Positions 1,298-27,934 of a stretch of 43,558 nt of DNA are shown here, piece after piece. The notes beneath the pieces are model-generated. The model was not told the origin of the DNA. It ran no database searches and saw only the letters and a list, made by a program, of their open reading frames with translations. Made by a program: the position numbers and the translations under genes. Positions within the stretch are counted from its first letter, which is position 1, and each line of letters opens with the position of its first letter. Origin of the DNA: Patescibacteria group bacterium. GTDB lineage: Bacteria > Patescibacteriota > Minisyncoccia > UBA6257 > MFKM01. The DNA lies in contig JBBTRS010000034.1 of assembly GCA_038065115.1 (NCBI GenBank), forward strand, positions 1 to 43,558, written 5' to 3'.

Positions 1298-1449
1298 CCC
1301 AGTAGTCCTGCCTGCCGGCAGGCAGGGAAAACTCGATTTGATTCGCCAAAGGCGAATCAGGGTTTTCTAAAAAACTGAGCAAAAACAAAAAGCAATGATT
1401 ATTAAAAGGTCAAATTATTCTAAATAATTATCGAGTTTCTACTACTGGG
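1298..1449 (+). repeat. TATG-bounded structured repeat, subfamily A, copy A1 (MITE-like element or cis-acting leader)
   Basis: It starts CCCAGTAGT and ends ACTACTGGG, and is flanked by TATG at 1294-1297 and 1450-1453. It is about 88% identical to copy A2 (26162-26291), apart from a 20-nt insertion at 1307-1326. The right-hand ATG (1451) is the hpf start codon. Confidence 0.85.
1307..1326. repeat. 20-nt perfect palindrome CCTGCCTGCCGGCAGGCAGG nested in repeat copy A1
   Basis: It is absent from the otherwise collinear copy A2 (CAGTAGT^GAAAAC is contiguous there). An identical 20-mer is present at 11904-11923 inside a tRNA T-stem. Confidence 0.85.
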
Positions 1450-1827: not shown

Positions 1828-4296
1828 ATGATAAAAAAACTCGTAGAGAAACTTTTAAACGGAAGAGGGGGGTATAAAAATTTCATAACCGAAATCAACC
1901 GATTGGAACCGGAGCTGGAAAAACTAGGGGAACAAGGATTAAAAGACAAAAGCAACGAATTAAAAAAAACGGTTCGGGAAGACGAACAAAAACTTAATGA
2001 CTTTAGTTTAATTTGCCTGGCTTTTGGTTTAGTCAGAGAAGCCGCTAAAAGAACGCTGAACCAGCGTCATTTTGATGTTCAATTGATAGGCGGTTTGGTT
2101 TTACATCAGGGAAAAATTGCCGAAATGTTGACCGGCGAAGGCAAAACCCTGGCCGCGACTCTGCCGGTTTATTTAAACGCTTTAAGTGGCCGTGGCGTCC
2201 ATATTATTACGGTCAATGATTATTTAGCCCGCCGAGACGCGGTTTGGATGGGGCAGGTATATGACTTGCTTGGGTTGTCTGTCGGGTGTTTAACGCACGA
2301 ATCCGCCTATATTTACAACTCTGATTTAAAGATAACCAGCACCCTTGAAACGCCAAACGCTCCGGGCATTAACATTGACAAAGAGCGGGATACTTTGGGC
2401 GGTTTCAAAGTAGTCCAGGAATTTCTTCAACCGATAACGCGAAAAGAGGCTTACCTCGCCGATATTATTTACGGCACCAACCACGAATTCGGATTTGATT
2501 ATTTAAGGGATAATTTAAGTTTGAAATTAACCGACCAGGTTCAGCGGCCGCTCAATTACGCCGTGATTGACGAAATTGACAGTATCTTGATTGACGAAGC
2601 CCGGACTCCTTTGATTATCGCTTCGCCCGATGCCCAATCAAGCGAATACTATAAAATTTTCGCCCGAATAGTTGAGGGCCTCAAACCGGAAGAAGATTAT
2701 CTGGTTGACGAAAAACAAAAGTCCGCCAATATCACCCAAGAAGGAATCGATAAAATTGAAAAAATACTCAAACTTCAAAATATTTACGGACCGGAAAATT
2801 TTTATCTGGTTCATTTCCTTGAAGAATCATTGAAAGCCAAGGTTCTTTTTCGCCGCGACAAGCATTATCTTGTTAAAGGCGGCGAGGTGATCATTATTGA
2901 CGAATTCACCGGCCATTTAATGCGCGGCCGCCGTTATTCCGGCGGACTTCACCAGGCTATTGAAGCCAAAGAATGGCTGGCTGATAAAAGCGTGATAGTT
3001 CAATCGGAATCCCGAACATTGGCCCAAATTACCATTCAAAATTATTTCCGTTTATATAAAAAAATCGCCGGAATGACCGGCACGGCGCAAACTTCAGCCG
3101 AAGAATTCCACAAGGTTTATAATTTGGAAGCAATCAGCATCCCGCCGAATAAACCGATGACGCGCAAAGACTATCCCGATGTTATTTACAAAACTCGTGA
3201 AGCAAAATACCAAGCCGTCATTGAAGAAATAAAAAAACGCCATGCCCAAGGCCAGCCATTATTGATAGGAACCCCCTCTACCGACCAAAACGAAATCTTC
3301 TCAAGTTTATTGAGCCATAACGGCATTCTTCACGAAGTTTTAAACGCCAAAAACAACGAAAGAGAAGGCTCTATAATCGCCCAAGCCGGAAAATTTAAAG
3401 CGGTAACTGTGGCGACCAACCGAGCCGGTCGGGGAGTGGATATTGTGCTGGGCGGCAACCCGCCAGACCACCAAGAAGCCGAAAAAATCAAAAGTTTGGG
3501 CGGACTCTGCGTAATCGGCACGGAAAGACACGAAGCCCGCCGCATTGACAATCAATTGCGGGGCCGAACCGGCCGCCAAGGCGATCCCGGTTCTTCCGTG
3601 TTTTTTTTATCGCTTGAAGACGACCTTCTAAAAATTTTCGGCGGCGACAGAATCAAAAATTTAATGCAGGCTTTTAAAGTGCCGGACGACGTGCCCATAG
3701 AATCAGGCCTTGTTTCCAAAGCCGTCAACCAGGCCCAGACAAAAATTGAAGGATTTAATTTTGACATCCGCCGCCATCTTCTTGATTTTGACGATATTCT
3801 CAATAAACAGCGAAGTTTTATCTATGGCCAGCGTCAAAAAATTTTAATTGCCGTTGAAAAAGGCGATTTTCAATCTTCCTTGAAAGAAATTACCGCTCAA
3901 GATTTAAGCGATGAGCAAAAAATAAAATTGAATCCGGAATCGGAAACTTTCCTCGGCCAGCAAATATTAAGAATTATGGACTTGCTTTGGATGGAAAATT
4001 TAGAAAATTTGGAATCCCTTCGGGAAGCGGTCGGTTTGCGGGCTTACGGCCAACACGAACCGCTCGTGGAATATCGCCGGGAAAGCTATCGTTTATTCAA
4101 AGAATTTCAGGCTAATTTCCGAAATTTAACTTTGGAAATCACTTCTAAGGTTTTAGCCAACCCCGTCATTTCTTCTCCGGAACAAAAACTTTCTTCACCC
4201 GCCTCCGCTAACGCCACGACAGATAAAAAACTAAACCGCAACGATCCCTGCTGGTGCGGCAGCGGCAAAAAATATAAAAAGTGTCATGGGGTGTAG
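1828..4296 (+). CDS. secA: preprotein translocase ATPase SecA
   Basis: 822 aa. It has Walker A (MLTGEGKTL), the DEAD-like motor motif (VIDEIDSILIDEARTPLII), the TNRAGRGVDI motif, and a C-terminal zinc finger (CWCGSGKKYKKCHG). Confidence 0.97.
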   Translation: MIKKLVEKLLNGRGGYKNFITEINRLEPELEKLGEQGLKDKSNELKKTVREDEQKLNDFSLICLAFGLVREAAKRTLNQRHFDVQLIGGLVLHQGKIAEMLTGEGKTLAATLPVYLNALSGRGVHIITVNDYLARRDAVWMGQVYDLLGLSVGCLTHESAYIYNSDLKITSTLETPNAPGINIDKERDTLGGFKVVQEFLQPITRKEAYLADIIYGTNHEFGFDYLRDNLSLKLTDQVQRPLNYAVIDEIDSILIDEARTPLIIASPDAQSSEYYKIFARIVEGLKPEEDYLVDEKQKSANITQEGIDKIEKILKLQNIYGPENFYLVHFLEESLKAKVLFRRDKHYLVKGGEVIIIDEFTGHLMRGRRYSGGLHQAIEAKEWLADKSVIVQSESRTLAQITIQNYFRLYKKIAGMTGTAQTSAEEFHKVYNLEAISIPPNKPMTRKDYPDVIYKTREAKYQAVIEEIKKRHAQGQPLLIGTPSTDQNEIFSSLLSHNGILHEVLNAKNNEREGSIIAQAGKFKAVTVATNRAGRGVDIVLGGNPPDHQEAEKIKSLGGLCVIGTERHEARRIDNQLRGRTGRQGDPGSSVFFLSLEDDLLKIFGGDRIKNLMQAFKVPDDVPIESGLVSKAVNQAQTKIEGFNFDIRRHLLDFDDILNKQRSFIYGQRQKILIAVEKGDFQSSLKEITAQDLSDEQKIKLNPESETFLGQQILRIMDLLWMENLENLESLREAVGLRAYGQHEPLVEYRRESYRLFKEFQANFRNLTLEITSKVLANPVISSPEQKLSSPASANATTDKKLNRNDPCWCGSGKKYKKCHGV

Positions 4297-7286: not shown

Positions 7287-7292
7287 AAAAAA

Positions 7293-7332
7293 TTACTATT
7301 GTAATTCCACGATCGCGGAATCATAATAGTAA
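7293..7332. repeat. 40-nt imperfect palindrome centred on CGATCG (copy 1 of 2); probable bidirectional terminator or REP-like element
   Basis: The sequence is TTACTATTGTAATTCCACGATCGCGGAATCATAATAGTAA. It is flanked by an A-run upstream and a T-run downstream. A near-identical element lies at 24281-24324. Confidence 0.75.
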
Positions 7333-7358
7333 ATTTTCTCTGAAAAAAATGAAAAGAT

Positions 7359-10976: not shown

Positions 10977-11511
10977 AAAAATAATTTTTGGGGCAATCGG
11001 ACTTTTGATTCTATTGTCTTTTATTTTTATAAAACTTGGCTTTTATCCGGTAGCCTTAACTTCAAAATGGACTATCACCAGCCGGCAATTTAACAAAGTC
11101 GTCGCCAGCTCTTTGGTTTATTACCAAAAAACTTTTTCCGTCTATGCCGCAAACGCGCCGATTGATAATGTTGAATTTCAAAAAGAAATCAAACGGGCGG
11201 CTTTGGATAAACTGATTAAAGATAAAATTACCGACGAAATTCTGATTAAAAAATTAGGGCGAAAAGAATTAAAACGACAGGTTGATGAAAAAATAACCAA
11301 TTTAGCCATTAATAATGAAATTGCCAAAGCCAGCCAAGTTCTTTACAATCTATCATTAGAAGACTTCAAAAAATTAATTTTGGTCCCTCAAGCTAAGATA
11401 GAAATCTTAAAAGAACAGGGGATTGATCTTGAAAAAATCAAAAAGTCCTACCAACCGATAATTTTAATTCCCGAATTTTATTGGCAAGATGAAGTTCTGA
11501 CGCGGGATTAG
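10963..11511 (+). CDS. membrane-anchored hypothetical protein (SurA-N-like chaperone domain possible)
   Basis: 182 aa with one N-terminal TM helix and a K/E-rich helical remainder. The 3' end overlaps the tRNA-Gly start by 10 nt. Confidence 0.55.
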   Translation: MKPGKKIIFGAIGLLILLSFIFIKLGFYPVALTSKWTITSRQFNKVVASSLVYYQKTFSVYAANAPIDNVEFQKEIKRAALDKLIKDKITDEILIKKLGRKELKRQVDEKITNLAINNEIAKASQVLYNLSLEDFKKLILVPQAKIEILKEQGIDLEKIKKSYQPIILIPEFYWQDEVLTRD

Positions 11512-11575
11512 TTGAGCGGCTCAACGTTACCTTCCCAAGGTAGAAAGACGGGTTCGACTCCCGTATCCCGCTCCA
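11502..11575 (+). tRNA. tRNA-Gly(CCC), CCA encoded
   Basis: The hand-folded cloverleaf is GCGGGAT TA GTTG AGCGGCT CAAC G TTACC TTCCCAA GGTAG AAAG ACGGG TTCGACT CCCGT ATCCCGC T CCA. Confidence 0.9.
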
Positions 11576-11789
11576 AGATTAAATTTTCAGAAATTTTGCC
11601 GATTGATTCGACCGCGCGAAGCGCGATAGAGAACGGAACTGACCGCTTCCGCTTCGCGCGATGCTGTTCAATGCCGGAAATCTTAGGTAAAATAGGCTCA
11701 AGCGGACTCTTGAATGTATTCAAGCTCGTCCCGCCAAAGCCGGAGTAGCTCAGTGGTAGAGTAGCTGTTTCGCCAGCTCCGTTAGAGAT

Positions 11790-11860
11790 GCCGATGTAGC
11801 TTAGTGGCAAAGCAATGGTTTCGTAAACCATGGACGGCAGTTCGATTCTGCCCATCGGCT
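11790..11860 (+). tRNA. tRNA-Thr(CGU), nested inside the interrupted tRNA-like gene
   Basis: The cloverleaf is GCCGATG TA GCTT AGTGGCA AAGC A ATGGT TTCGTAA ACCAT GGAC GGCAG TTCGATT CTGCC CATCGGC T. All stems are Watson-Crick. No CCA is encoded. Confidence 0.88.
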
Positions 11861-11903
11861 CATCGGTATCTCTAACAGGGTAAACAAGTCGCGAGTTCGA
11901 ATC

Positions 11904-11923
11904 CCTGCCTGCCGGCAGGCAGG
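11904..11923. repeat. 20-nt perfect palindrome CCTGCCTGCCGGCAGGCAGG inserted in a tRNA T-stem
   Basis: It is identical to 1307-1326. Removing it restores GCGAG/CTCGC T-stem pairing. Confidence 0.8.
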
Positions 11924-11938
11924 TCGCCTCCGGCTCAT

Positions 11939-12528: not shown

Positions 12529-13230
12529 ATGATCAATCAAAATACGGCAATTATTTCTGTCTACGCCGGCGTCGGGGGAGAAGACGCCAAAGATTGGGTG
12601 GAAATGCTCTTGAGGATGTATCAAAAATACGCCCAACAAAATAATTGGAAAGTCCGGTCAATCAACAATCATACATCGGAAATAATCGGGGAAAACGCTT
12701 ACGGCCTGCTTAAAAACGAATCCGGAGTTCATCGTTTAATCAGAATTTCTCCGTTTGACGCCAAAAAACTTCGCCATACTTCTTTTGCTTTGGTTGAAGC
12801 TCTGCCGGAACTGCCGGAATTAGAAGAAAAAAAATTGGTTATTCCCGATGAAGATTTAAGAATAGAACTTTGCCGTTCCAGCGGTCCGGGCGGTCAAAAT
12901 GTCAATAAAAGAGAAACCGCGGTCAGGATTATTCATTTGCCGACCGGTTTAACCGCCGCTTCGCAGGCTGAACGCTCCCAAGCTCAAAACCGAGAATTAG
13001 CGTTAAAATTGCTAAAATCAAAACTTTTTAAATTAATGACTGAACGCCAGGAAAAAGAACTAAGCAATCTTCGGACTAAAATAACCCCCGATTGGGGCCA
13101 TCAAATACGCTCCTATGTGCTTCATCCTTATCAAATGGTCAAAGACCACCGCACCGGAGTTAAAACCAGCAATACTGAAGCGGTTTTAGAGGGAAATCTT
13201 GATAAATTCATCAAAAAATCTATAATATAA
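12529..13230 (+). CDS. prfB: peptide chain release factor 2, short form lacking N-terminal domain 1
   Basis: 233 aa. It has the SPF stop-recognition tripeptide (RISPFD) and the GGQ motif (SSGPGGQNVNK). It begins at the equivalent of the domain 2 start (IISVYAGVGGEDAKDW). Confidence 0.85.
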   Translation: MINQNTAIISVYAGVGGEDAKDWVEMLLRMYQKYAQQNNWKVRSINNHTSEIIGENAYGLLKNESGVHRLIRISPFDAKKLRHTSFALVEALPELPELEEKKLVIPDEDLRIELCRSSGPGGQNVNKRETAVRIIHLPTGLTAASQAERSQAQNRELALKLLKSKLFKLMTERQEKELSNLRTKITPDWGHQIRSYVLHPYQMVKDHRTGVKTSNTEAVLEGNLDKFIKKSII

Positions 13231-24264: not shown

Positions 24265-24280
24265 AATACAAGATTTTTCT

Positions 24281-24324
24281 ATTTACTATTGTAAATCCAC
24301 GATCGTGGAATTACAATAGTAAAT
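24281..24324. repeat. 44-nt near-perfect palindrome centred on CGATCG (copy 2 of 2)
   Basis: ATTTACTATTGTAAATCCACGA pairs with TCGTGGAATTACAATAGTAAAT as 22 bp with one mismatch. It is homologous to 7293-7332. Confidence 0.8.
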
Positions 24325-24336
24325 AACGATGAAGCG

Positions 24337-26010: not shown

Positions 26011-26157
26011 CCCAGTAGTGAGCCCGCGATTGCTTTAGCTCAATTTATCGCGGGGCTTTCAACTGGGAAATAAATCCATTATTATTAACAAGTCAAATTA
26101 ATAAATCAGAGTCGCGATGAGCTAAAGATAAATTGCTATCGCGGGTCTACTACTGGG
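26011..26157 (+). repeat. TATG-bounded structured repeat, subfamily B, copy B2
   Basis: The termini are the same as in B1. It is flanked by TATG at 26007-26010 and 26158-26161. It starts 8 nt after the stop codon of the protease gene. Confidence 0.85.
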
Positions 26158-26161
26158 TATG

Positions 26162-26291
26162 CCCAGTAGTGAAAACTCGATTTGATTCGCCTTTGGCGAA
26201 TCAGGGTTTTCTAAAACTAAGCAAAAACAAAAAACAATGATTATCAAAAGGTCGTATTATTTCAAATAATTATCGAGTTTCTACTACTGGG
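26162..26291 (+). repeat. TATG-bounded structured repeat, subfamily A, copy A2 (tandem with B2)
   Basis: It shares the middle TATG (26158-26161) with B2. The right TATG is at 26292-26295, and its ATG (26293) is the rplI start codon. Confidence 0.85.
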
Positions 26292-27866: not shown

Positions 27867-27902
27867 AAATTTAAAGTCACCCGTTCAAGGACAAAAACCT
27901 TA

Positions 27903-27934
27903 CCCCGTAGTAAAACTTTTACTACGGGGTTTTT
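27903..27934 (+). terminator. strong intrinsic terminator
   Basis: CCCCGTAGTAAAA (27903-27915) pairs with TTTTACTACGGGG (27917-27929), followed by TTTTT. Confidence 0.8.

What the first reader, a model, noticed from the sequence alone, without database searches (positions are those of the whole stretch)
11739..11935. A complete tRNA-Thr nested inside another tRNA-like gene, bracketed by a 9-bp helix
GCCGGAG (11739-11745) and CTCCGGC (11928-11934) form a 7-bp acceptor stem with discriminator T. A textbook D-arm follows the 5' strand (TA GCTC AGTGGTA GAGT). A T-arm precedes the 3' strand and is perfect once the 20-nt palindrome is removed. Where the anticodon arm should be there are about 125 nt. 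They comprise a small hairpin AGCTG-TTTCGC-CAGCT (11763-11778), followed by a perfect 9-bp helix GTTAGAGAT (11781-11789)/ATCTCTAAC (11868-11876), extendable by CC/GG. That helix encloses a fully canonical tRNA-Thr(CGU) (11790-11860). The inner 3' acceptor strand is echoed in tandem, CATCGGCT CATCGGTA (11853-11868). I could not rebuild a canonical 5-bp stem with a 7-nt loop as the anticodon arm of the outer molecule. One option is GCTGT/ACAGG (11764-11768/11875-11879), which has a G-G mismatch. The other is TGTTT/AAACA (11766-11770/11882-11886), which gives correct spacing to the T-arm but 3 nt instead of 1 after the D-arm. One interpretation is a tRNA gene being destroyed by serial insertions. 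The other is a nested arrangement in which RNase P/Z release of the inner tRNA cuts the outer transcript into two halves held together by the 9-11-bp helix. That would formally resemble the split tRNA halves known from Nanoarchaeum. To my knowledge nothing like that is described in bacteria.
Basis: partly seen in the sequence, partly recalled or inferred. Interest (0 to 1): 0.82.

Follow-up and report, generated by a model that had tools for sequence, protein, structure and literature searches.

The report
Broken tRNA-Thr gene enclosing a working copy
A threonine tRNA gene in an uncultured groundwater bacterium was split in its anticodon loop by a short piece of inserted DNA, bounded by inverted repeats, that carries an intact copy of the same tRNA; the outer "tRNA" is a decaying remnant, not a new kind of split tRNA.

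Summary
An intact tRNA-Thr(CGU) at 11790-11860 sits between two halves of a second tRNA-like gene (11739-11772 and 11881-11935). A 9-13 bp inverted repeat brackets it. A 20-nt palindrome interrupts the outer T-stem.

The outer gene is itself a tRNA-Thr(CGU). It is broken after anticodon position 35 and lacks 3 nt of its anticodon-stem/variable region. Joined as they stand, the halves are not called a tRNA. With the 3 nt restored, they give a perfect tRNA-Thr(CGU).

The same composite occurs in at least three other Parcubacteria whose PrfB/FtsE proteins are only 52-64% identical to the window's. In those copies:
- The outer acceptor stem is mismatched in one (L082).
- The T-arm carries a different insert in L082 and in L091, and L093 has none.
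- Other loci hold orphan or stacked 5' halves.

The bracketing arms are a dispersed inverted-repeat family. A filled site (L113) and an empty site (L112) show that they are DNA insertions. The 20-nt palindrome is also mobile, with a second exact copy at 1307.

Verdict: this is a tRNA pseudogene split by a self-complementing mobile insert. The reading as a Nanoarchaeum-like split tRNA is not supported. A processing role for the helix in the transcript is not excluded.

The parts
11739..11772 (+). Outer tRNA-Thr(CGU) pseudogene, 5' half: acceptor 5' strand GCCGGAG, D-arm, anticodon-stem 5' strand GCTGT, and loop TTCG ending at anticodon position 35.
   Evidence: Sequence. It matches 29 of 33 positions (my count by eye from the sequences) of the intact outer-type tRNA-Thr(CGU) in L089. 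Thr-CGU genes of relatives L018, L025 and L050 begin GCCGGAGTAGCTCAG...
11763..11778 (+). Junction hairpin AGCTG-TTTCGC-CAGCT. Its 5' strand is the outer anticodon-stem strand and its 3' strand (CCAGCT, 11773-11778) is insert-side sequence.
   Evidence: The block GAGTAGCTGTTTCGCCAGC recurs in L082, L089, L091, L093, L100, L101 and L106, but these 19 nt were the search pattern, so their identity was forced.
11777..11789 (+). Left arm (terminal inverted repeat) CTCCGTTAGAGAT; the perfect core is 11781-11789.
   Evidence: Relatives have CCCCGTTAGAAAT. The same arms bound unrelated inserts in L093 (1527-1641) and L113 (312-448).
11790..11860 (+). Inner, intact tRNA-Thr(CGU); presumably the functional gene.
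   Evidence: ARAGORN; Rfam tRNA 70.7 bits over the full model 1-71. It is 100% identical in L082 and 99% in L091.
11861..11867 (+). CATCGGT, an inverted copy of the inner 5' acceptor strand GCCGATG. It extends the right arm, so the inverted repeat reaches 16 bp here and 19-20 bp in L082.
   Evidence: The MFE fold pairs it with the inner 5' acceptor strand.
11868..11880 (+). Right arm (terminal inverted repeat) ATCTCTAACAGGG.
   Evidence: Relative to ATTTCTAACGGGG in the relatives, it carries the change that compensates the G/A change in the left arm.
11881..11935 (+). Outer pseudogene, 3' half: TAA ACA (truncated anticodon 3' strand), AGTC, T-arm GCGAG TTCGAAT C|TCGC, acceptor 3' strand CTCCGGC, and discriminator T.
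   Evidence: By eye, from the sequences, its T-arm and acceptor strand match the intact L089 gene exactly once the palindrome is removed. Adding back 3 nt gives a perfect ARAGORN tRNA-Thr(cgt).
11904..11923 (.). 20-nt perfect palindrome CCTGCCTGCCGGCAGGCAGG inserted in the 3' strand of the outer T-stem, with no target-site duplication.
   Evidence: A second exact copy lies at 1307-1326 (chance expectation 0.00). There it interrupts a repeat whose uninterrupted paralog is at about 26158-26190.
1307..1326 (.). Second copy of the 20-nt palindrome. It shows that the palindrome is a mobile insertion.
11502..11575 (+). tRNA-Gly(CCC), the upstream neighbour. Gly(CCC)-Thr(CGU) is a common ancestral pairing at this locus.
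   Evidence: L015, L017; L112-L116.
11573..11660 (+). Spacer that shares sequence with the region following tRNA-Gly in L088, which there runs into a serine-recombinase gene remnant. It also shares motifs with the long inverted repeats that flank large serine recombinase genes in relatives.
   Evidence: 33 of 40 nt match L088. The motifs TTCAGAAATTTTG[CG]CG and CGCGCGAAGCGCG are shared with L101, L117 and L118. This evidence is modest.

Best explanation
The locus began as an ordinary tRNA-Thr(CGU) gene at the conserved position upstream of dgkA/prfB/ftsEX in a Parcubacteria (Patescibacteria) genome.

A short DNA segment bounded by 13-20 bp inverted repeats (CCCCGTTAGAAAT ... ATTTCTAACGGGG; in this window CTCCGTTAGAGAT ... 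ATCTCTAACAGGG) entered its anticodon loop after G35. The right flank, GTAAAC, resembles the flanks of other members of this repeat family. The segment carries a complete tRNA-Thr(CGU).

The split outer gene could no longer decode. The inserted copy has the same anticodon and replaces it, so the outer halves became a pseudogene. They then lost 3 nt of the anticodon 3' strand/variable region, and in this genome they acquired a 20-nt mobile palindrome in the T-stem.

The composite (outer halves, arms and inner tRNA) then spread between distantly related Parcubacteria. The likely route is horizontal transfer followed by homologous recombination within conserved tRNA sequence. That would explain chimeric outer halves such as those in L082.

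Shown:
- The outer gene is Thr(CGU).
- It cannot form an anticodon arm.
- The composite has homologs.
- The outer parts decay in different ways in different genomes.
- The arms family and the palindrome are DNA insertions.

Inferred:
- The order of events.
- The mode of spread.
- That only the inner tRNA is functional. It would be released by RNase P and 3' processing from a transcript that starts upstream of the outer 5' half.
For: (1) Identity of the outer gene. The acceptor, D-arm, T-arm and U73 match Thr genes of relatives. The 5' half ends ..GCTGT TTCG and the 3' half starts TAAACA. Joined as they stand the halves give no tRNA, but adding 3 nt gives a perfect tRNA-Thr(cgt). L089 holds an intact gene with the same acceptor, D-arm and T-arm.

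(2) No isoacceptor is lost, because the inner gene is an intact Thr(CGU) scoring 70.7 bits.

(3) Homologous composites occur in L082/L107, L091 and L093, with a partial copy in L106. These organisms' PrfB/FtsE proteins are 52-64% identical to the window's.

(4) The outer parts decay differently in each locus.
- L082: the acceptor pairs at 3 of 7 positions, and a 30-nt insert sits inside the T-loop.
- L091: the T-stem pairs at 3 of 5 positions, about 59 nt are inserted, and the acceptor has one mismatch and one G-U pair.
- Window: a 20-nt palindrome sits in the T-stem.
- L093: no insert.
- All four share the truncated ACA[AG]GTC, which points to a single origin.

(5) Orphan and stacked 5' halves end at the same TTTCG (TTTGG in L110) with no 3' partner in the sequence available. 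These are L100, L101 and L110, plus the third-level halves in L093 and L106 (L106 runs off the contig end).

(6) The arms are a dispersed inverted-repeat family that bounds unrelated inserts.
- L113 is a filled site and L112 the matching empty site, with GTTGAC/GGGGTTGAC duplicated.
- The L093 copy sits in an archease-rtcB gap that is only 8 nt long in relatives.

(7) The 20-nt palindrome is a clean insertion relative to a paralogous repeat.

(8) The hairpin-plus-arm block is 100% identical in six contexts, while the inner tRNAs are only 81% identical between the two types and the upstream flanks look unrelated. That fits a mobile or horizontally spread unit better than vertical neutral decay.

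(9) There is a precedent. In tRNA-dependent lysogeny an element disrupts a host tRNA gene and carries a replacement of the same isotype (PMC10865867).
Against: - The nested copy has no clear target-site duplication (left flank GCCAGC, right flank GTAAAC), unlike L113.
- No transposase or integrase that recognises these arms has been identified.
- The interiors of the family members are unrelated, which is unusual for MITEs.
- In the window and in L093 the outer acceptor, D-arm and T-arm are still perfectly paired. L093 also has a double, pairing-preserving T-stem difference (GAGAG/CTCTC versus GCGAG/CTCGC), and the window has a compensatory change in the arms (G-C against A-T elsewhere). Both hint that pairing is maintained. 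Recombination with functional Thr genes that carry GAGAG/CTCTC stems (for example L027), or repair templated between the arms, could also produce them.
- The first 19 nt of the conserved block were the search pattern, so their invariance is partly an ascertainment effect.
Confidence: 0.7

Rival explanations
1. Functional composite precursor. The whole unit is kept because the arm helix acts in the primary transcript. The helix is 13 bp, or 16-20 bp when the CATCGGY echo pairs with the inner 5' acceptor strand. It could be an RNase III-type processing stem or a folding/stability element that controls release of the essential inner tRNA-Thr(CGU). The outer halves would then serve as a tRNA-like leader and trailer. 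This resembles the processing stems around bacterial rRNAs, or Correia-type repeats that RNase III cleaves in transcripts (both from my own knowledge).
For: - The arms carry a compensatory change in the window (GTTAGAGAT/ATCTCTAAC against GTTAGAAAT/ATTTCTAAC).
- The arm sequence is identical in six contexts although it was not part of the search pattern.
- The composite folds strongly into a cloverleaf within a cloverleaf (z = -5.7 and -5.9).
- The promoter scan returned no candidate in 11576-11789, so the inner tRNA probably depends on a transcript that starts upstream of the outer 5' half.
Against: - L100 and L101 keep the identical left arm but have no right arm in the sequence available, and L110 keeps only a diverged version of it (CCCCGTATACATTT), also without a right arm. 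Pairing is therefore not required for tRNA expression.
- Other family members lie in non-tRNA contexts. One sits at the -35 box of infA with an empty site in a relative, which shows behaviour at the DNA level.
- The outer acceptor (L082) and T-arm (L091, L082, window) are not maintained.
Confidence: 0.15
2. Scar of site-specific recombination rather than transposition. The arms would be the two inverted half-sites (P and P') of an attP-like site, separated by integration into the anticodon stem-loop of tRNA-Thr(CGU). The element would have carried its own tRNA-Thr next to attP, and its body was later deleted, leaving attL-tRNA-attR.
For: - The break is at the same place (TTTCG|) in all 5' halves that share the hairpin block, and in the third-level halves of L093 and L106, as expected for a fixed crossover point in the anticodon loop. 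L110 has TTTGG there.
- The arms are symmetric and extend 7 nt into the inner tRNA.
- In L101 a large serine recombinase gene lies beside, and convergent with, the tRNA-Thr that carries the 5' half and left arm.
- In L088 a recombinase remnant follows tRNA-Gly and a spacer homologous to the window's.
- Integrative elements are well known to use anticodon loops (my own knowledge), and Islander-type displaced tRNA fragments mark island ends (abstract of PMC4383910, listed).
Against: - No dinucleotide or core is shared by both junctions as serine integrases require (my own inspection of the sequence).
- The recombinase genes in L117 and L118 are flanked by their own inverted repeats of about 150 bp, which are unrelated to the arms.
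- The arms also bound two inserts with unrelated interiors, one with an apparent target duplication. That fits transposition better.
- The same internal deletion would have to have arisen once and then spread.
Confidence: 0.1
3. True split or intron-containing tRNA. The arm-bounded segment would be removed at the RNA level and the outer exons joined (for example by RtcB/archease), or they would stay base-paired as a two-piece tRNA, giving a second functional tRNA.
For: - In L093 an element with the same arms lies between the archease and rtcB genes, which encode the RNA-splicing ligase and its cofactor.
- The L093 outer cloverleaf is perfect apart from the anticodon arm.
Against: - No canonical anticodon stem-loop can be formed in any of the four loci after any simple excision. 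Excision at the helix ends leaves TGTTT/AAACA with the loop CGCCAGT, which lacks U33, and three nucleotides between the D and anticodon stems (plus my reading of the sequence).
- The helix is continuous and has no bulge-helix-bulge motif.
- The L082 acceptor is unpaired.
- The palindrome and the other T-arm inserts would also have to be removed.
- In relatives the archease-rtcB gap is 8 nt, so the L093 element is an insertion there and not a conserved substrate.
- The outer gene would only duplicate the inner anticodon.
Confidence: 0.03
4. Assembly artefact (chimeric joining of tRNA-Thr variants or palindrome artefacts).
For: - The window is a metagenomic assembly.
- tRNA paralogs and palindromes are prone to misassembly.
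Against: - The identical locus is present in L081, although I did not establish that L081 is a separate assembly from the window's contig.
- The homologous composite is identical in seven contigs from several assemblies.
- It also occurs, with differences, in JGI metagenomes from other sites.
Confidence: 0.01

Closest known systems
tRNA-dependent lysogeny of actinobacteriophages (Guerrero-Bustamante & Hatfull 2024, PMC10865867)
   Same: Incoming DNA interrupts a host tRNA gene without rebuilding it. [quoted passage not shown]
   Different: - There the element is a whole prophage with a tyrosine integrase and an attP/attB core of about 10 bp.
- Here the insert is only about 108 bp (arms plus tRNA), has no recombinase gene, sits inside the anticodon loop, and is bounded by inverted repeats.
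- Here complementation is inferred, not tested.
Displaced tRNA gene fragments at the ends of genomic islands (Islander, PMC4383910; tRNA gene fragments in prokaryotes, PMC9897764)
   Same: Partial tRNA copies that cannot fold into a cloverleaf lie next to an intact gene. They break at fixed points such as the anticodon loop and are mis-read or missed by tRNA finders.
   Different: - The classical case leaves a single 3' fragment kilobases away, and the regenerated gene is a host/element hybrid.
- Here both halves of the old gene closely flank a complete new gene.
Bacterial MITEs / small palindromic repeats (for example Correia elements, REP/BIME; my own knowledge)
   Same: - Short non-coding inserts with terminal inverted repeats.
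- Dispersed copies.
- Filled/empty-site polymorphism with a duplicated target.
- Potential to form hairpins in transcripts.
   Different: - Family members here share only the terminal repeats of about 13 nt, and their interiors are unrelated.
- One member carries a tRNA gene as cargo.
- The nested copy lacks a clear target duplication.
- No parent IS is known.
Split and multi-intron tRNA genes of Archaea (Nanoarchaeum equitans, Caldivirga; reviewed in PMC4090602 and PMC4390854, which I saw only as titles and abstracts; the details here are from my own knowledge)
   Same: The two tRNA halves are separated by intervening sequence whose flanks are complementary. Insertions lie at non-canonical positions (T-loop, D-loop).
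   Different: - The archaeal cases rebuild a complete cloverleaf with a proper anticodon arm, use a bulge-helix-bulge motif, and depend on the splicing endonuclease.
- Here the organism is bacterial, no bulge-helix-bulge motif is present, the anticodon arm cannot be rebuilt, and the halves are unpaired in one relative.
Group I introns in bacterial tRNA anticodon loops (cyanobacterial tRNA-Leu(UAA) and others; my own knowledge)
   Same: The interruption lies inside the anticodon loop of a bacterial tRNA gene.
   Different: - The insert is about 108 nt and mostly a tRNA.
- Rfam finds no group I intron match.
- No P1-P9 architecture is present.

Membership tests
Functional tRNA gene (outer molecule) | 7-bp acceptor stem, D-arm and T-arm in canonical register | tested here: inconclusive
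   In the window the acceptor and D-arm are perfect, but the T-arm is perfect only after the 20-nt palindrome is removed. In homologs the acceptor pairs at 3 of 7 positions (L082) and the T-stem at 3 of 5 (L091).
Functional tRNA gene (outer molecule) | 5-bp anticodon stem with a 7-nt loop (U33, anticodon, purine 37) | tested here: not met
   ARAGORN with introns finds no outer gene, also with the palindrome removed. The joined halves give no call. The deletion scan gives only inconsistent, permissive calls. All four loci share the truncated 3' strand ACA[AG]GTC.
Functional tRNA gene (outer molecule) | Detected by covariance model at or above the Rfam gathering score | tested here: not met
   Only the inner tRNA and three others pass RF00005. 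No partial outer hit appears even at E<=10.
tRNA pseudogene / displaced tRNA fragments | Sequence clearly derived from a tRNA of known identity but unable to form a complete cloverleaf | tested here: met
   The halves match Thr(CGU) genes of relatives and the intact L089 gene. Restoring 3 nt gives a perfect tRNA-Thr(cgt).
tRNA pseudogene / displaced tRNA fragments | An intact gene of the same anticodon is present, so the function is covered | tested here: met
   The inner tRNA-Thr(CGU) scores 70.7 bits.
tRNA pseudogene / displaced tRNA fragments | Lineage-specific decay (independent disabling changes in relatives) | tested here: met
   T-arm inserts differ in the window, L082 and L091, and the L082 acceptor is unpaired.
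MITE-like mobile insertion (arms family) | Terminal inverted repeats shared by dispersed copies | tested here: met
   CCCCGTTAGAAA[TC] and its complement bound inserts in the nested loci, in L093 (1527-1641) and in L113/L114 (312-448).
MITE-like mobile insertion (arms family) | Filled versus empty site with target-site duplication | tested here: inconclusive
   This is met for L113 (filled) against L112 (empty), with GTTGAC/GGGGTTGAC duplicated. L093 has TTTAC on both sides. It is not met for the nested copy (GCCAGC against GTAAAC).
MITE-like mobile insertion (arms family) | Related autonomous element with a transposase recognising the repeats | not tested
Archaeal-type split or BHB-intron tRNA | Bulge-helix-bulge motif (3-nt bulge, 4-bp helix, 3-nt bulge) at exon-intron junctions | tested here: not met
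   The predicted structures show a continuous 13-18 bp helix without such bulges.
Archaeal-type split or BHB-intron tRNA | Exons join into a complete canonical tRNA | tested here: not met
Archaeal-type split or BHB-intron tRNA | Host encodes a tRNA-splicing endonuclease | not tested
   The host is bacterial by gene content (prfB, ftsEX and typA homologs) and by its closest relatives (Patescibacteria MAGs). Only 43.5 kb is available. RtcB and archease occur in relatives, but no endonuclease was sought.
Group I intron in a tRNA | Match to the group I intron model / catalytic core, length of 200 nt or more | tested here: not met
   No Rfam intron hit at the gathering threshold or at E<=10. The insert is about 108 nt, of which 71 are the tRNA.
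tRNA-dependent integration (element disrupts the tRNA and carries a replacement) | Disrupted host tRNA plus an element-borne tRNA of the same isotype | tested here: met
   The outer Thr(CGU) is split and the inner Thr(CGU) is intact.
tRNA-dependent integration (element disrupts the tRNA and carries a replacement) | Integrase and an attP/attB common core at the junctions | tested here: not met
   The insert and the window region around it hold no integrase. By my inspection the two junctions share no core. The serine recombinases in relatives have unrelated flanking repeats.

The most novel reading that the evidence does not exclude
The arm-bounded unit may be a miniature mobile element that carries a tRNA-Thr(CGU) gene and inserts into the anticodon loop of the resident tRNA-Thr(CGU). 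It would kill the resident gene and make the host dependent on the element's copy, an 'addictive', self-complementing tRNA cassette that has spread among distantly related Patescibacteria.

In addition, or instead, its 13-20 bp arm helix may be an obligatory RNA-processing stem for the inner tRNA. After cleavage this would leave a two-piece tRNA-like outer RNA.
Probability: 0.15. Interest if true: 0.75.

Novelty: new variant of a known kind. Interest (0 to 1): 0.4.

Why it matters
- It settles an arrangement that looks like a bacterial split tRNA: it is a pseudogene wrapped around its own replacement. This is a useful caution for tRNA annotation in candidate-phyla bacteria, whose genomes often seem to lack or duplicate tRNAs.
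- Disruption of a tRNA gene combined with delivery of a replacement was known from whole prophages. Here it occurs at a scale of about 100 bp and has been passed between very distant Parcubacteria.
- The tRNA-Thr/prfB locus of these reduced genomes turns out to be a hot spot for several kinds of small mobile DNA: an inverted-repeat family, a 20-nt palindrome, GC-rich hairpins in D- and T-loops, and serine-recombinase cassettes that abut tRNA 3' ends. None of these has been characterised.

Tried and rejected
- ARAGORN with intron options and lowered thresholds finds only the inner tRNA.
- An exhaustive deletion scan of the middle region was uninformative. Once the acceptor, D-arm and T-arm are present, ARAGORN calls many inconsistent anticodons.
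- Rfam at E<=10 gives no partial-tRNA, intron, tmRNA or ribozyme hit for the outer parts.
- Four viral-contig scans found nothing: three DNA patterns and one recombinase protein. No phage origin is therefore supported.
- A strict serine-integrase model (arms as P/P' half-sites) was set aside as the main explanation. The junctions share no crossover dinucleotide, and the recombinase genes have their own unrelated inverted repeats of about 150 bp.
- The archease-rtcB link was followed. It turned out to be an insertion into a gap that is normally 8 nt, so it gives no evidence for RNA splicing of these elements.
- A -10-like reading of TAGAAAT in the left arm was rejected, because it lies too close to the tRNA 5' end to serve as its promoter (my own inspection; the promoter scan found nothing there).
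- The closest genome relative (L001, PrfB 69% identical) has no tRNA at the locus, so it could not serve as an outgroup.
Full report
**1. What is in the sequence**

The window comes from a Patescibacteria/Parcubacteria genome. The upstream protein is found on a Hainich groundwater contig, and the PrfB relatives are Parcubacteria MAGs.

Gene order around the finding:
- a 182-aa protein;
- tRNA-Gly(CCC), 11502-11575;
- a 163-nt spacer;
- the composite, 11739-11935;
- dgkA on the minus strand (the product of the same gene in L081 hits Pfam DAGK_prokar);
- prfB, ftsE and ftsX.

These are the 7-bp outer acceptor, the D-arm, the hairpin at 11763-11778, the 9-bp helix 11781-11789/11868-11876, the inner tRNA-Thr(CGU) at 11790-11860, the CATCGGC-T-CATCGGT echo, and the 20-nt palindrome at 11904-11923 whose removal restores GCGAG TTCGAAT CTCGC. 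The inner tRNA is canonical (Rfam 70.7 bits). The outer molecule is not called by ARAGORN, even with introns allowed or the palindrome deleted, and Rfam does not call it at E<=10. The 197-nt unit folds far better than shuffled sequence (z = -5.7).

**2. What the outer gene is**

Upstream of prfB, relatives usually carry Thr(GGU)+Thr(CGU) or Gly(CCC)+Thr(CGU). The outer acceptor (GCCGGAG/CTCCGGC), U73, D-arm and T-arm are those of Parcubacteria tRNA-Thr genes. For example, L018, L025 and L050 start GCCGGAGTAGCTCAG and end CTCCGGCTC.

The outer 5' half ends ...GCTGT TTCG and the 3' half starts TAAACA AGTC GCGAG. It is therefore a tRNA-Thr(CGU) broken after anticodon position 35, and its anticodon 3' strand/variable region is 3 nt short.
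- ARAGORN finds nothing in the two halves joined as they stand.
- It returns a perfect tRNA-Thr(cgt) when ACAAGTC is restored to ACAGCAGGTC.
- A Hainich contig (L089) carries an intact gene with the same acceptor, D-arm and T-arm.

Outer and inner have the same anticodon, so no isoacceptor is lost.

**3. Homologous loci**

I found homologs in two ways. A spurious ORF that spans the locus recovered P0002 and hence L082. One metagenome scan with RAGTAGCTGTTTCGCCAGC added the rest.
- Complete composites: L082 (the same sequence as L107, Rifle groundwater), L091 and L093.
- Partial composite at a contig end: L106.
- 5' half, hairpin, left arm and tRNA-Thr, but no right arm or 3' half: L100 and L101.
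- A mosaic ending in the intact outer-type gene: L089.

These organisms are distant. PrfB is 59% (L082), 63% (L091) and 52% (L100) identical to the window's, and FtsE of L093 is 52% identical.

The table of pairings shows how the loci differ.
- L082: the outer acceptor pairs at 3 of 7 positions (GCCACCT against CTCCGGC), and a 30-nt insert sits inside the T-loop.
- L091: the T-stem pairs at 3 of 5 positions, about 59 nt are inserted after TTC, and the acceptor is imperfect.
- Window: the 20-nt palindrome.
- L093: no insert and perfect stems, with T-stem GAGAG/CTCTC.
- All four share the truncated ACA[AG]GTC.

In none of them can a 5-bp/7-nt anticodon arm be rebuilt. After excision at the helix ends its loop would be CGCCAGT, which lacks U33.

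Further 5' halves also end at TTTCG (TTTGG in L110) without partners in the sequence available. These are the third-level halves in L093 and L106 and the half in L110, each with a GC-rich hairpin in the D-loop.

**4. The arms are ends of DNA insertions**

The 12-13 nt arm CCCCGTTAGAAAT was not part of the search pattern, yet it is identical in six contexts. The same inverted pair bounds two inserts with unrelated interiors.
- L093 1527-1641 lies between archease and rtcB. In relatives that gap is 8 nt.
- L113/L114 312-448 lies upstream of infA.

For the infA case, L112 is the empty site. GCGGGGTTGACAAAAAAATAA is uninterrupted there, whereas L113 has the insert with GTTGAC (up to GGGGTTGAC) on both sides. 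The right flanks of the three kinds of insert are GTTGAC, GTTTAC and, in the tRNA, GTAAAC. GTAAAC is the G35-C40 stretch of a Thr(CGU) anticodon loop and stem. The nested copy itself lacks a recognisable duplication (left flank GCCAGC).

In L082 the inverted repeat runs on through an inverted copy of the inner 5' acceptor strand and reaches 19-20 bp. No further arms occur in the window.

**5. The palindrome is mobile too**

CCTGCCTGCCGGCAGGCAGG occurs a second time at 1307-1326, with a chance expectation of 0. There it splits TATGCCCAGTAGT|GAAAACTCGATTTGATTCG, a repeat whose intact copy lies at about 26158-26190. It is a clean 20-bp insertion with no duplication. The outer T-stem was therefore hit by a mobile palindrome. 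This fits a gene that is no longer under selection.

**6. Conservation and spread**

The inner tRNAs fall into two types that are 81% identical. The hairpin-plus-arm block is 100% identical in six loci, and the upstream flanks look unrelated. Part of this conservation was forced by the 19-nt search pattern, but the arms and the 3' junction (ATTTCTAACGGGGTAAACA[AG]GTCG) were not. In organisms whose core proteins differ by 40-50%, neutral vertical inheritance cannot explain such identity. The composite has either spread horizontally or is under sequence-level constraint.

The chimeric outer halves point to recombination within conserved tRNA sequence.
- The L082 and L101 5' ends are GCCAC[CT]T, as in the Thr genes of L020 and L027.
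- The L093 T-stem is like that of the Thr(GGU) gene of L027.

**7. Other mobile DNA at the locus**

In L101 a large serine recombinase gene (about 476 aa; resolvase, recombinase and zinc-ribbon domains) is convergent with the tRNA-Thr. Its family is very large in Patescibacteria: 6643 hits at E<=1e-30, with the top 120 being 72-97% identical. In L117 and L118 the gene is flanked by inverted repeats of about 150 bp that start CCA[AG]A... immediately after the 3' end of a tRNA gene (Cys in L117, Thr-GGU in L118). The same repeat follows Thr-CGU in L101, and a shorter version follows Gly in L088. The window's spacer after tRNA-Gly shares 33 of 40 nt with L088 and shares two motifs with these repeats. 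These repeats are unrelated to the arms, so the recombinase is context and not the cause of the nesting.

**8. Mechanism and rivals**

Best explanation (0.70): the resident tRNA-Thr(CGU) was split by an inverted-repeat-bounded insert that carries an intact tRNA-Thr(CGU). The outer gene then decayed, and the composite spread horizontally. The inner tRNA is presumably cut out of a transcript that starts upstream of the outer 5' half, because the promoter scan found no candidate between the tRNA-Gly and the inner gene.

Rivals:
- The arm helix is a maintained RNA-processing stem (0.15). One compensatory change and the strict conservation of the arms support it. The loci that lack the right arm, and the DNA-level behaviour of the family, weaken it.
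- The arms are attP half-sites of a site-specific recombinase (0.10).
- A true split or spliced tRNA (0.03).
- An assembly artefact (0.01).

**9. Comparison with what is known**

The logic is that of tRNA-dependent lysogeny, in which an element disrupts a host tRNA and carries the replacement (PMC10865867). It also resembles the displaced tRNA fragments found at island ends. Here, however, the insert is miniature, has no integrase, and is bounded by inverted repeats.

It does not belong to the archaeal split/BHB-intron class or to the group I intron class, because their defining features were tested and not met. I file it as a new variant of a known kind: a tRNA pseudogene created by mobile DNA.

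**10. Scores**

Interest is 0.4. The arrangement is unusual and recurs across lineages, but the exotic reading fails. The most novel reading that remains is a self-complementing, tRNA-carrying mini-element that targets its cognate gene, with or without a processing role for the helix. I give it about 0.15 probability and an interest of 0.75 if true.

Noticed in passing
window 1298-1337, 1430-1449, 26138-26181, 27902-27930: A family of hairpin repeats (CCCAGTAGTGAAAACTCGAT / ATCGAGTTTCTACTACTGGG; ACCCCGTAGTAAAA/TTTTACTACGGGGT). One copy is split by the 20-nt palindrome. Similar CCCC..TAC..GGGG hairpins sit in the D-loops of orphan tRNA 5' halves in L093, L106 and L110.
   Followed up: partly
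L117 9853-10000 and 11450-11600; L118 40-215 and 1770-1937; L101 about 4020-4226; L088: A large serine recombinase gene, very widespread and conserved in Patescibacteria (6643 homologs at E<=1e-30). It is flanked by inverted repeats of about 150 bp that begin CCA[AG]A immediately after the discriminator of a tRNA gene (Cys, Thr-GGU, Thr-CGU, Gly-CCC). It looks like an uncharacterised invertible or mobile cassette that targets tRNA 3' ends.
   Followed up: partly
window 11573-11660: The spacer after tRNA-Gly(CCC) shares 33 of 40 nt with the L088 region that leads into a recombinase remnant. It also shares the motifs TTCAGAAATTTTGCCG and CGCGCGAAGCGCG with the recombinase-flanking repeats. It may be a solo remnant of such a cassette.
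   Followed up: partly
L093 1063-1905; L113 6001-9371: ftsE-archease-rtcB is a conserved gene order in these Parcubacteria. RtcB in L113/L114 contains an intein. In L093 an arm-bounded 115-nt element is inserted between archease and rtcB.
   Followed up: partly
L093 1-123; L106 about 2340-2517; L110 1-66; L005 3560-3585 and 3715-3765; L046 about 3360-3457: Stacked or orphan tRNA-Thr 5' fragments lie upstream of intact Thr genes. Several have the same first 7 nt as the downstream gene, and several carry GC-rich hairpins in the D-loop. The 3' part of tRNA-Gly at the start of L093 appears to carry a hairpin in its T-loop.
   Followed up: partly
L091 about 11640-11700 (minus strand): Downstream of the L091 composite lies another T-loop/acceptor 3' fragment (..AAATCCGACCACCGGCTC). 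As in the outer T-loop, it is preceded by two tandem GC-rich hairpins inserted after GTTC.
   Followed up: no
window 7288-7337 and 24280-24325: Two similar palindromes of about 46-50 bp (TATTTACTATTGTAAATCCACGA/TCGTGGAATTACAATAGTAAATA). This is another repeated palindromic element of unknown role.
   Followed up: no
window 12529-13230: The prfB ORF as listed starts at residue 1 of a 233-aa product, and the N-terminal part seems to lie in another frame upstream. This is consistent with the usual programmed +1 frameshift of RF2, but I did not check it.
   Followed up: no
L113 about 1820-1900: ACAAAACCTTTACCCCG and TAAGGCGAAC motifs are shared with the L093 arm-bounded element but appear in a different order, between rpsK and rpsD. 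This may be a further relative of the repeat family.
   Followed up: no
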